From IMG/VR virus record IMGVR_UViG_2877982868_000014: DNA of 64,000 nucleotides; one strand, 5' to 3'. Of this stretch, positions 39,001 to 42,000 are shown one piece after another; position 1 is the first letter of the stretch, and each line of letters opens with the position of its first letter. The stretch comes from a virus. Taxonomy: Duplodnaviria; Heunggongvirae; Uroviricota; Caudoviricetes. Position numbers: made by a program.

Positions 39001-42000
39001 GTTTGAAAGGGAACCTTTTTTCGTCCACTGGCGGAATGTTTCGCCGCTGTGCTCCCAGCCTGCAAGCACTGATTTTTCAGCGCCACCAGCAAGAATATCG
39101 GTAAAATCGCTGCTGCTGTGGGTGAATGCCGCGTTTACTATCTGCGAGCGTGTGCCGTAGCTGCCCGTGCTTATACCACGATGGGTTAATGATGCCTGTG
39201 CCATATCGAAAAGGCTCATCATGGCGTAAGGATTACCGCGTTCGGCCCGTTCGTGACCAAGACGCGCATTAAGCCCCTGGCGCATTGCATCGCCGGTTAT
39301 GTTGCCGTTATCCGTGTACGCGTAGTAAAGATTTGCGGGGGTGGTTTTGTTTGTTGGCGTTGATTCTTTACCCATAGCGAGTAAAAGGCGTTCGCGTGCA
39401 TTCTCAACGCTACATTCTGAATCAGCAAGACAACTTATAGCCAGGTCGTTATATCTTCCGTTGAACGTGCCAAACAATTCACGGATGCCGTTAAGTCGTT
39501 CCTGTTCGCCACTGGTAGTTTTCTGGCTGATCATGCTTTTAATTTTTTCCGGCATATTTGAAAAATCTCCGATTCGTTTTGATTCAATTCGGGCCATTGC
39601 TGTAATCGCGGCTATAACCTCATCTGCGAAGCCGTTAGCCTTACACTCATTGCCATCCATCCAGGTTTCCGCCTCCATCATGGCGGTGATTTCCTGTTTG
39701 CTCCTGCCCGTTCTTCCGGCGTAGGTTTCCGCCATCGTGTCGCCCAGCTTGTCCATCAGGTCAGCAAAGCGGCGAACGTCGCCCGACACTCCGGCAGTAA
39801 CACCACGGGGGGCATGTATCATCATCATCGCGTTTTCAGGCATAACGATGTGATCGCCACACATGGCAATAAACGAGGCCATAGAAGCCGCCATGCCTTC
39901 AATGTGTACAATTTTCTTTGCCGGATGATTTTTCAGGGCGTTATAGATAGCCAGCCCTTCAAAGATGTCGCCACCAGGTGAATGGATGCGAAGATGGATT
40001 TCAGACACATTACCGCACGCGTTGATCTCGTCAGTAAGTGCCGATGCCTTTACACCGTACCCGCCGATCTCGTCATAAATGCGCACATGTACAACATCTG
40101 CCATAGCCTTAATGGAAAACCATGTTTTCATAGCCAGGCTCCTAACGTTGCCCTGTACCAGTATTCAACCGCGCTGCGTGTGATTTGTCCTTTCGTGGGC
40201 ACTGGCATACCCGGGTGATTATCTTTGATGAACTGCTGATAGCGTTCGATCTTCTCCATAGTTCCGGCGTCTATGTGTACCGTGGCACTTTTATCCGGCT
40301 TTCTGGTGTTGTTCTCTGGCATAAATCCGCCTCCGTTTTGATTAACGGGCATCATTATTGATCGATAAAAGTAATAGATAAATCATTTTCTACCTGAAAA
40401 TCAGATTATGTTTTTTCTGATTATTCTCAGAAAGGCAAAGTTATTGACGCATTTTTGCCATTGAAGCAGTATTAAGACTCGTCATCCTGGCGATAAAAAC
40501 TCCTTTGTCGTGTAAAAGCGCCTCCGGTAACAGCAATCGGGGGCGCTTTTTTTGCGCCTGTTTTTTGTAAATGTTTTCGGGAACGTTCCGGTGATGAACA
40601 AAAAACAACCTGATTCGACACTAAAAATTTTTATTTCTCAACATATCAATAGCTTATAGTGGTGGTGATGGTGCCATAAAAATCAAAAAATGCGCCTTTT
40701 TCCGCGCCCCTCCGCCCCGTGGACAGGCCACCCCCACCAGGAGTACCTACAAAAAAGCCGGATTTCTCCGGCTTCTGTCACTCGTTGCTTAAAACGGTAT
40801 GTTATCCCCGTACGGATCATCATTCCCCGCCTGTTGTTTTGCCCTGTTCAGTGCGTCAGTAGCCTGCCCCTGCTGGCCTTTTTTGCCGCCCGGTCGCGCC
40901 GTTCTCGCACTGATTACGCTGTCTGCGATAACCTGCCAGCCCTGCCGCGTTTCGCCGTTCTGGCCTGTCCACTGGCTTACCTGCATGTTACCCGCCACGC
41001 TCACCAGCTCGCCTTTGCGGTGTTTTGCCAGTGCGTCGGCCTGTCTGCCAAACGCCAGGACGGATAACCACATCGTAGCCGTTCCGTCATCTGCCTGGCT
41101 GCACGGCAGGGGGACAGCCATACTCGCCATCGTCATTTGTGTGCCCTTGCTGGTGGTCTTTAACTGTGGGTCAGCCACCAGCCGCCCGTAAGCCGCTATC
41201 TGTGCTGTCATGATTCCACCTCTCCGGTTTTAACGTTGATGGTTGTTACCTGTTCCGCTTCGGCAATCTCCCGTTCTGTCAGCGTGGCAAAGTTTGCAGC
41301 TGCCGTTGTCATGAATGCGCTAACCAGTTCGGGATGTGCTTTCGCATATCCTTCCCCGGCGTTGCGGTCGATGATTTTTATCGACACCCTTAACCAGTGT
41401 TCCGTCAAATCAAGGGCGTGCGATTGTGATTTTTTTGTGTGCTTCGCTGTCATAGGCTTTATCTCACAGCAGTAAATTAAAATTTTTGCGTTTCAACCCT
41501 TCACCTGTTCACCTTTTGATATTTTATCTTTTAATTCATAATGTTAAGGGGTGAACAGTTTCACAAAAACTATTCACCAACTGTTCACCACTGTTCACCC
41601 TTGAAGCTCAATAAACAATCAAAAAGGTGAACAGTGAATAGTTTGGTGAACAGTTCATAAATAACTGTTCACCATATAATATACTGATATAAAAGATATT
41701 TATGACAGGGTGAACAGTGATGAACAGTTATTCCATAAGTTTAATTTTTGCCATCGTCATTTGTGACCGATGCACATGAGGGCATCCAGTCTTCTGAATC
41801 CTCTGTCAGTATCACGTTTGAACGCAAGCCATGCTTCGTTTTCCGTTTCATATACTCCCTGCCGTATTCCGCCATTGCCCCTGGCATATCCTTACCGAAG
41901 CGTGTCAGTGTTACGGGCTTACCGAATCCGTGTGCCCTCATATACGCCAGATAGGCGTGATAGAGATACCTGCGCGGGCTGAACGGAATAATTTCAGCAT

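What the first reader, a model, noticed from the sequence alone, without database searches (positions are those of the whole stretch)
41504..41728. Iteron-type replication origin downstream of the primase-helicase gene
At least nine copies of GGTGAACAG/CTGTTCACC in both orientations lie in AT-rich DNA directly 3' of the primase-helicase gene, the arrangement expected for an origin in PICI and P4-type elements. It argues the nested element replicates autonomously after excision.
Basis: partly seen in the sequence, partly recalled or inferred. Interest (0 to 1): 0.4.

Follow-up and report, generated by a model that had tools for sequence, protein, structure and literature searches.

The report
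P4-type replication origin of nested PICI
A 230-base cluster of a repeated nine-letter word just after the replication gene of a small phage-parasite island is almost certainly that island's origin of replication, and it is an ordinary example of a design already described for such islands.

Summary
Eight exact GGTGAACAG/CTGTTCACC words, plus four degenerate ones, all lie in 41497-41727. That is 31-34% GC DNA starting 13 nt after the stop codon of the minus-strand gene 41741-43555. Chance predicts 0.56 in the whole window.

The word is the P4 "type 1" origin repeat. The adjacent 604-aa protein is 50% identical to the helicase and origin-binding parts of P4 alpha. Its C-terminus matches the solved P4 origin-binding domain (1KA8, E=1.6e-23).

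The array is two P4-ori-type modules in mirror orientation, each with a 35-36 bp, 83% A+T spacer. It aligns position for position with the experimentally tested origin of the E. coli island EcCICFT073, which uses a different word.

In 80 related loci the array sits at the same place. Where the word changes, the wing of the binding domain changes too.

The island is a helper-embedded PICI inside a prophage terminase gene, a published configuration.

Two corrections apply. The protein lacks P4's zinc finger and primase catalytic residues, so "primase" is probably a misnomer. In P4 itself the post-alpha position holds crr, not ori.

Verdict: a real origin, a new member of a known kind, of low novelty.

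The parts
41741..43555 (-). Rep gene, 604 aa. It has an N-terminal Toprim-like domain without catalytic residues (aa 1-~125), a D5_N domain, an SF3 helicase (Walker A GPGGSGKS) and a C-terminal winged-helix origin-binding domain (aa 496-592).
   Evidence: Pfam D5_N, DUF5906 and Pox_D5. 50% identity to P4 alpha aa 304-776. 1KA8 match E=1.6e-23 and SaPI5 PriRep 7OLA E=2.6e-10. 51% identity to the EcCICFT073 Rep.
41497..41727 (.). Iteron array, the proposed origin: 12 copies of GGTGAACAG (8 exact). In + strand order: (- -)[AT spacer](+)(- - -) | (+ + +)(-)[AT spacer](+ +).
41626..41727 (.). Gene-proximal module. Iterons at 41626(+), 41633(+, 2 mismatches), 41645(+), 41665(-), 41709(+), 41719(+, 1 mismatch). 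Order, orientation and spacing match the P4 ori type-1 repeats 9310-9413.
41674..41708 (.). 35-bp spacer, 83% A+T, between convergent iterons; a candidate melting site.
   Evidence: P4 ori and each crr repeat have a 35-bp spacer at the same place.
41600..41625 (.). 26-bp central spacer (73% A+T) around the dyad centre of the array, near 41612.
   Evidence: Inverted repeat I1, arms 41525-41580 and 41643-41698, 73% complementary.
41497..41599 (.). Gene-distal module, the mirror image of the proximal one. Iterons at 41497(-, 2 mismatches), 41505(-), 41550(+), 41570(-, 1 mismatch), 41581(-), 41591(-).
41514..41549 (.). 36-bp spacer, 83% A+T; the second candidate melting site.
41454..41496 (.). A+T-rich tail (70% A+T) between the last iteron and the next gene. 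The tract AAACGCAnAnnTTTTAATTT is conserved across genera.
41208..41453 (-). 81-aa protein of unknown function (phrog_1231). A small unnamed gene sits in the same slot, just after the origin, in EcCICFT073 and strain 08-00022; similarity between these proteins was not tested.
40789..41211 (-). Island-encoded single-strand DNA-binding protein, part of the replication zone.
   Evidence: Pfam SSB 3.7e-16; same position in EcCICFT073.
46371..47609 (-). Tyrosine integrase of the island. An AlpA-like HTH gene lies at 46154-46378.
47769..47780 (.). att core CCCTACATCCAA at the integrase end of the island, inside the prophage terL.
37321..37332 (.). att core CCCTCCATCCAA at the far end of the island. 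The island spans about 37333-47780.
   Evidence: The empty site in strain OK1 has one copy inside an intact 708-aa terL.

Best explanation
The 41497-41727 array is the vegetative origin of a 10.4-kb helper-embedded PICI.

Shown: the adjacent gene encodes a self-loading SF3 helicase-initiator of the P4-alpha lineage. Its C-terminal winged-helix domain is the solved P4 origin-binding domain type. The DNA word is the P4 type-1 origin repeat. The array is two P4-ori-type modules in mirror orientation.

Inferred: after the island is induced and Rep is made, the winged-helix domains bind the iterons. Adjacent iterons are 10-11 or about 20 bp apart, so they lie on one face of the helix. Two Rep hexamers then assemble, one per module. 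The 35-36 bp, 83% A+T spacers melt and the helicases move apart to give bidirectional replication. This follows the model proposed for SaPI Reps.

Rep lacks the zinc finger and the acidic Toprim residues of P4 alpha. Primers are therefore probably made by the host DnaG or a helper enzyme, with the island's own SSB coating the unwound strands.

The amplified island DNA carries copies of the surrounding prophage's cos-like region and is then packaged by that prophage family.
For: Statistics and location.

Word identity with P4: the record annotates GGTGAACA as 'ori type 1 repeat', and P4 has 11 copies confined to ori and crr.

Protein link: the C-terminus matches 1KA8 at E=1.6e-23, and the protein is 50% identical to alpha aa 304-776.

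Architecture: start-to-start spacings of 10, 44, 20 and 19 bp equal those of P4 ori (10, 44, 21, 11, 10), and the second half is the mirror image.

Homology to a tested origin: EcCICFT073 has the same gene order. Its intergenic ori aligns position for position with the window's array. In that island rep plus ori supported plasmid maintenance, and deleting rep or ori impaired it (PMC6092414, Fig. 2b text).

Comparative evidence: in 80 related loci, 60 have >=3 GTGAACA within 500 bp 3' of the gene. Density is 8.0 per kb there and 0.15 per kb elsewhere. At least 9 others have a different word (GGTAGACA, GGCGGACAG, GGTGGAGAG, GGTGTAYAG, GGTATACAC, GGTGTTCAT) at the same place, mostly with recognisably similar spacing. 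Those word changes come with substitutions or insertions in the wing of the binding domain.

Conservation: iteron columns are 78% conserved and spacers 61%, p=5e-6.

Natural episome: a 98%-identical array lies on a 10,790-bp circular record that is an entire PICI.

SaPI mechanism: PMC9371898.
Against: No experiment on this sequence exists; function rests on homology and comparison.

The Rep here is only 51% identical to the tested EcCICFT073 Rep and uses a different iteron.

In P4 the cluster at this position (crr) is an enhancer-like cis element, not the start site.

The Rep lacks recognisable primase residues, so its competence depends on an unproven host or helper priming step.

The circular 10.8-kb record could be an assembled excision product rather than a maintained replicon.

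Which A+T tract melts is not known.
Confidence: 0.85

Rival explanations
1. The array is a crr-like cis-acting replication enhancer, as at the same position in P4, and initiation happens at a separate origin elsewhere in the island.
For: In P4 the cluster directly 3' of alpha is crr (4291-4590). The ori is a second cluster 2.1 kb upstream of alpha. A Pantoea relative with a 776-aa alpha also has two separated clusters (L080).
Against: The island has no second cluster. No other stretch of the window holds more than 2 copies at <=1 mismatch. The internal order and spacing match P4 ori, not the crr repeat unit. Most relatives, including those with full-length 813-aa alpha proteins, have only the single downstream array within +/-6 kb. 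No P4 type-2 repeats lie nearby. The homologous EcCICFT073 region acted as the ori in a rep-ori plasmid (PMC6092414).
Confidence: 0.05
2. The array is mainly a transcriptional operator. Rep binding there autoregulates the operon or gates read-through into the downstream ssb and capsid genes, without serving as an origin.
For: The array lies inside a unidirectional gene string between rep and the next genes. The consensus scan finds no terminator or promoter there, so transcription probably crosses it.
Against: Twelve sites in a mirror arrangement around 83% A+T spacers is an origin design, not an operator design. The same design is the mapped origin in P4 and the tested origin in EcCICFT073. 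A regulatory side-effect is not excluded but would be additional.
Confidence: 0.03
3. The array is a relic. The island is a decaying element whose primase-less Rep no longer fires the origin, and it is copied only passively as part of the prophage or chromosome.
For: Rep lacks the primase catalytic residues of P4 alpha. One small island gene is annotated as frameshifted in an identical copy. Helper-embedded PICIs can be replicated passively within the excised composite (PMC10111431).
Against: The rep, int, alpA-like and ssb ORFs are intact. The array is >=90% identical in nearly all of the 593 of 5426 complete E. coli genomes that hold it, in several different island types and sites. Iterons are better conserved than spacers. 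The same primase-less N-terminal domain is present in the replication-competent EcCICFT073 Rep, about 85% identical over aa 1-125 by eye (PMC6092414).
Confidence: 0.07

Closest known systems
EcCICFT073 rep-ori module (Gram-negative PICI; Fillol-Salom et al. 2018, PMC6092414)
   Same: Same gene order: int, alpA-like HTH, YlcI/YnfO, Icd-like, DUF4222, rep, about 288-bp intergenic ori, small ORF, ssb, capsid gene. The origin is immediately 3' of rep with sets of iterons flanking A+T-rich DNA. The arrays align position for position. The N-terminal 125 aa of Rep are about 85% identical by eye.
   Different: The iteron word is GGTAGACAG there and GGTGAACAG here. The helicase and origin-binding parts are only about 45% identical, so the specificity module has been exchanged. 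EcCICFT073 sits between ycfD (roxA) and phoQ, not inside a prophage gene.
Satellite phage P4 alpha / ori / crr replicon (NC_001609)
   Same: The iteron word is identical (GGTGAACAG). The origin-binding domain is of the 1KA8 type, and the protein is 50% identical to alpha aa 304-776. The module of three iterons, one inverted iteron, a 35-bp A+T spacer and two iterons has the same spacing as P4 ori.
   Different: P4 has two separated cis elements: ori, and crr made of two direct 120-bp repeats. Here there is one array made of two inverted ori-type modules. There are no type-2 repeats. Rep lacks alpha's zinc finger and its EGYATA and AADRD primase motifs. The island has no sid, delta or psu genes and has PICI gene order instead.
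SaPI Rep/ori (Staphylococcus aureus pathogenicity islands; PMC9371898)
   Same: A self-loading SF3 helicase-initiator with a C-terminal winged helix. Six to twelve iterons lie immediately downstream of rep, split around A+T-rich DNA and pointing in opposite directions. The helicase core matches SaPI5 PriRep 7OLA at E=2.6e-10.
   Different: The relationship is distant. SaPI iterons are 5-6 nt. The hosts are Gram-positive and the island regulation differs (Stl repressor).
Helper-embedded PICIs (Tommasini, Mageeney and Williams 2023, PMC10111431)
   Same: [quoted passage not shown] It has its own 'primase' and an origin downstream of it. A site in the terminase large-subunit cognate is among the 14 listed.
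   Different: That paper does not analyse the origin sequence; 'iteron' occurs 0 times in it. I did not check whether this exact island is in its set.

Membership tests
Gram-negative PICI replication module (EcCICFT073 type) | Origin immediately 3' of the replication initiator gene | tested here: met
   The array starts 13 nt after the rep stop codon and fills the rep-to-next-gene intergenic region.
Gram-negative PICI replication module (EcCICFT073 type) | Two sets of iterons flanking A+T-rich DNA | tested here: met
   Two mirror modules, each with a 35-36 bp spacer of 83% A+T, plus a 26-bp central spacer.
Gram-negative PICI replication module (EcCICFT073 type) | Island organisation: int, alpA-type regulator and rep transcribed in one direction, with synteny to EcCICFT073 | tested here: met
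   The listed island genes, int through capsid, are on the minus strand. The same order of annotated genes is found in EcCICFT073. Rep is 51% identical.
Gram-negative PICI replication module (EcCICFT073 type) | rep plus ori suffices for autonomous replication; deletion of either abolishes it | not testable with these tools
   Shown only for EcCICFT073 (PMC6092414). Circumstantial here: a 98%-identical array lies on a 10.8-kb circular PICI record.
Gram-negative PICI replication module (EcCICFT073 type) | Helper-phage-dependent induction and packaging | tested here: inconclusive
   The island carries two copies of the resident prophage's cos-like region, about 82% and 71% identical. Induction itself cannot be tested.
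P4 alpha/ori/crr replicon | Type-1 iteron GGTGAACA bound by the C-terminal domain of alpha | tested here: met
   The word is identical. The C-terminal domain matches 1KA8 at E=1.6e-23. Binding itself was not tested.
P4 alpha/ori/crr replicon | Multifunctional alpha with an N-terminal primase (zinc finger, EGYATA, DxD) | tested here: not met
P4 alpha/ori/crr replicon | Two separated cis elements, ori and crr | tested here: not met
   There is a single cluster in the island.
P4 alpha/ori/crr replicon | Type-2 repeats in ori | tested here: not met
   No YCAYTTAAAG cluster near the array; 7 hits in the window against 12 expected.
Helper-embedded PICI | Integrated within, and co-oriented with, a late gene of a prophage; precise excision restores the gene | tested here: met
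   terL fragments at 36207-37328 and 47771-48778 flank the island. The 12-bp att cores are 11/12 identical. The empty site in strain OK1 encodes an intact 708-aa TerL reading ...ASFWMEGPAAAF....
Iteron plasmid origins (RepA/pi/TrfA type) | Directly repeated 17-22 bp iterons with DnaA boxes and a Rep of the plasmid winged-helix dimer type | tested here: not met
   The words are 9 nt, in both orientations. There is no DnaA box and no GATC in 41400-41800. Rep is an SF3 helicase.

The most novel reading that the evidence does not exclude
PICIs, capsid-forming PICIs and P4-type satellites of enterobacteria share one exchangeable helicase-plus-binding-domain-plus-array cassette, and this island carries the version with P4's own specificity. 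A co-resident P4 alpha could then fire this origin, or this Rep could bind P4 ori and crr. That would give cross-activation or interference between satellite families. Separately, the single mirror-image array may do in one piece what P4 splits into ori and crr. The primase-less Rep may make the island dependent on host DnaG, unlike P4, which by my recollection of the P4 literature does not need DnaG.
Probability: 0.3. Interest if true: 0.45.

Novelty: new member of a known kind. Interest (0 to 1): 0.25.

Why it matters
It confirms that the nested island has a complete replication module: an initiator-helicase, its cognate origin and an SSB. The island should therefore be read as a live helper-embedded satellite rather than prophage debris.

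Three practical points follow.
- The 'DNA primase family protein' annotation on this widespread E. coli protein is probably misleading.
- The origin word and module spacing are those of P4, so replication cross-talk between P4-like satellites and PICIs becomes a testable possibility.
- Natural pairs of near-identical binding domains with different iterons (for example L078 and L079, which differ at two wing residues) point to the residues that set origin specificity.

None of this changes the known picture of PICI replication.

Tried and rejected
1. Reading the array as P4 crr because of its position. Rejected as the main reading: there is no second cluster, the module order equals P4 ori, and there are no 120-bp direct repeats.

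2. Host-initiator signals. No DnaA box (<=1 mismatch) and no GATC; only weak IHF-like matches.

3. Promoter and terminator scan of 41300-41900: nothing found.

4. Search for the lambda-type cos of EcCICFT073 in the window: none. A different cos-like repeat shared with the resident prophage was found instead.

5. Rfam scan of the island at gathering thresholds: no hits.

6. Full-text search for the bare word TGTTCACC returned only unrelated primer hits. Two other calls failed on term syntax.

7. Hit H59, chosen as an 'empty site', was a rearranged prophage. H60 was used instead.

9. I did not determine whether this exact island is listed in the published PICI or HE-PICI tables.

Full report
**The observation**

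GGTGAACAG occurs exactly eight times in the 64-kb window, four on each strand, all between 41505 and 41717. Dinucleotide-preserving shuffles give a mean of 0.56 and never more than 3.

Allowing mismatches adds CTATTCACC at 41570 and GATGAACAG at 41719 (one mismatch each). It also adds copies at 41497 and 41633 (two mismatches each). That makes 12 sites in 231 bp. No other 300-bp stretch of the window has more than two sites at <=1 mismatch.

The stretch is 31-34% GC, against about 45-60% around it. The neighbouring genes are on the minus strand. The array begins 13 nt after ORF 41741-43555 and ends 43 nt before ORF 41208-41453. No ORF of 40 aa or more lies inside the array itself; one listed + strand ORF (41236-41475) only overlaps the 43-nt tail.

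**The adjacent protein**

The 604-aa product has D5_N, DUF5906 (SF3 helicase) and Pox_D5 domains. It is 50% identical to residues 304-776 of the alpha protein of satellite phage P4. Its residues 496-592 match the solved P4 origin-binding domain, PDB 1KA8, at E=1.6e-23. The helicase core also matches the SaPI5 PriRep structure 7OLA.

Nothing aligns to the first 300 residues of alpha. Full-length relatives carry a CxxC...CxxC zinc finger, the EGYATA-type motif and an AADxD motif; the short form here has none of them. From my own knowledge of the P4 literature (Strack et al. 1992), the EGYATA glutamate is needed for primase activity.

The same N-terminal module is also found fused to RepA/AAA_25-type helicases. 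Some relatives have a different N-terminus altogether. I conclude that the protein is an initiator-helicase and probably not a primase.

**The DNA word and the architecture**

The P4 record annotates GGTGAACA as the 'ori type 1 repeat'. P4 has 11 exact copies, all in ori (9310-9413) or crr (4291-4590). From my own knowledge (Ziegelin and Lanka 1995; Yeo et al. 2002), the C-terminal domain of alpha binds these repeats.

Read on the rep-coding strand, the window's gene-proximal half has two iterons, a 35-bp A+T spacer, one inverted iteron, then three iterons. Start-to-start distances are 10, 44, 20 and 19 bp. P4 ori read on the alpha strand gives 10, 44, 21, 11 and 10 bp, in the same orientations.

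The distal half is the mirror image, so the whole array is two ori-type modules back to back around about 41612. A 56-nt imperfect inverted repeat, 73% complementary, shows that the spacers also took part in the duplication. The two long spacers are 83% A+T.

P4's crr occupies the same position after alpha but is built differently, as two direct 120-bp repeats. The window has no second cluster and no type-2 repeats.

**Relation to a tested origin**

The island matches EcCICFT073 gene for gene: int, HTH regulator, YlcI/YnfO, Icd-like, DUF4222, rep, an intergenic region of about 288 bp, a small ORF, ssb and a capsid gene. The two Reps are 51% identical overall and about 85% (by eye) over the N-terminal 125 residues.

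The two intergenic regions align iteron for iteron, but EcCICFT073 uses GGTAGACAG. Fillol-Salom et al. [quoted passage not shown] They report that the EcCICFT073 rep-ori segment maintains a temperature-sensitive plasmid at the restrictive temperature, and that deleting rep or ori impairs this. The window's array is therefore the positional homologue of an experimentally supported origin.

**Comparative support**

A scan of one genome per species returned 80 loci encoding relatives, from Raoultella, Kluyvera, Klebsiella, Citrobacter, Pectobacterium, Serratia, Xenorhabdus, Photorhabdus, Erwinia, Zobellella and others.

- Sixty of the 80 have three or more GTGAACA heptamers within 500 bp after the gene. 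Density there is 8.0 per kb, against 0.15 per kb in the remaining 955 kb.
- The site order and spacing seen here recur across genera.
- In an alignment of 13 arrays, iteron columns are 78% conserved and spacers 61% (p=5e-6).
- At least nine further loci carry a different word at the same place, mostly with recognisably similar spacing: GGTAGACA, GGCGGACAG, GGTGGAGAG, GGTGTAYAG, GGTATACAC and GGTGTTCAT.
- Those loci differ from the window protein chiefly in the wing of the winged helix. They carry five-residue insertions with GGTAGACA or GGCGGACAG, and a one-residue insertion with GGTGGAGAG.
- L078 and L079 are 95.5% identical over the last 112 residues, yet have different words. Two of their five differences fall in the wing.

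This co-variation of protein and site is what a cognate initiator-origin pair predicts.

**Distribution**

The 287-bp intergenic region is found in 593 of 5426 complete E. coli genomes, up to six times per genome, and is >=90% identical in nearly all of them. It occurs in a tRNA-Pro PICI with the same protease-capsid fusion gene, and in a capsid-forming PICI next to yhdJ.

A 98%-identical copy (282 of 287 bases) lies on pZ1323HEC0475-3. That record is a 10,790-bp circular 'plasmid' that is an entire PICI. This is circumstantial evidence that such islands exist as free circles.

**Context**

The island (about 37333-47780) interrupts the large terminase gene of a lambdoid prophage. The 12-bp att cores are CCCTCCATCCAA and CCCTACATCCAA. 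An uninterrupted 708-aa TerL in strain OK1 shows that precise excision restores the gene. Fifty-six genomes share the junction.

This is the helper-embedded PICI configuration of Tommasini et al. 2023 (PMC10111431). That paper lists a terminase site and notes that such islands have their own 'primase' and origin. The island also carries two copies of the cos-like region that lies upstream of the prophage's small-terminase gene. That fits a satellite which must amplify its DNA before packaging.

**Mechanism, rivals and verdict**

The best-supported reading is an initiator-helicase origin of the P4/PICI/SaPI kind. Iteron binding is by the winged helix. Two hexamers load, one per module. The A+T spacers melt and replication is bidirectional (model from PMC9371898). 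Priming is by a host or helper enzyme, which is an inference from the missing primase residues. I put this at about 0.85.

The rivals are a crr-like enhancer only (0.05), an operator only (0.03) and a relic (0.07). The single cluster, the ori-type module, intact genes, conservation and the EcCICFT073 experiment argue against them.

The finding is correct but ordinary: a new member of a known kind. The modest additions are the identity with P4's own iteron and module spacing, the mirror-duplicated layout, the likely absence of primase activity, and the wing-iteron co-variation.

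Noticed in passing
window 37321-37332 and 47769-47780; terL fragments 36207-37328 and 47771-48778: The 10.4-kb island is integrated inside, and co-oriented with, the large terminase gene of a lambdoid prophage. The 12-bp att cores are 11/12 identical. Excision would restore a 708-aa TerL, as seen intact in strain OK1. Fifty-six of 5426 E. coli genomes share the junction. This matches the published helper-embedded PICI configuration (PMC10111431).
   Followed up: yes
window 38049-38237 and 40663-40774, compared with 49320-49508: The island carries two copies (about 82% and 71% identical) of the G+C-rich cos-like region that lies just upstream of the prophage's small-terminase gene (48775-49251). 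This suggests it is packaged by this prophage family. The cos cut site itself was not identified.
   Followed up: partly
window 43181-43555 (Rep aa 1-125): The N-terminal domain is a conserved module (TEVIIFAGSDAW...) with a Toprim-like predicted fold but without catalytic acidic residues. In other E. coli proteins the same module is fused to RepA/AAA_25 helicases instead of the SF3 helicase. Its function is unknown.
   Followed up: partly
window 43012-43020 (+) and 43043-43051 (-): Two one-mismatch iteron-like words (GGTGAACGG and GGTGAACTG) lie in inverted orientation, 22 bp apart, inside the rep coding region. This could be chance or an auxiliary Rep site.
   Followed up: no
L088 (NZ_CP148328.1, 10,790-bp circular record): A record deposited as an E. 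coli plasmid is a complete PICI: int, alpA, rep, a 98%-identical origin, and a protease-capsid fusion gene. It is either a free episome or an assembled excision product.
   Followed up: partly
window 10895-12218 and 32308-33631: A 1324-nt inverted repeat, 99% complementary, with arms 20 kb apart. Its size fits two copies of an IS element; an IS3-family IS1203 is annotated in a matching genome near this prophage. Recombination between the copies could invert the intervening prophage segment.
   Followed up: no
L078 and L079 (Pseudocitrobacter faecalis; Escherichia sp. ESNIH1): Two Rep proteins are 95.5% identical over their C-terminal 112 residues. Their origin arrays have similar spacing but different words (GGTATACAC and GGTGTTCAT). 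Two of the five residue differences are in the wing (KNRGMVTN and KTRGVVTN). This is a natural pointer to the specificity residues.
   Followed up: partly
window 38242-40131 (-): The island encodes a 629-aa ClpP-like prohead protease fused to a major capsid protein, but no portal or terminase. Its role in a cos-type PICI was not examined; published work reports that PICI capsid genes are dispensable for transfer.
   Followed up: no
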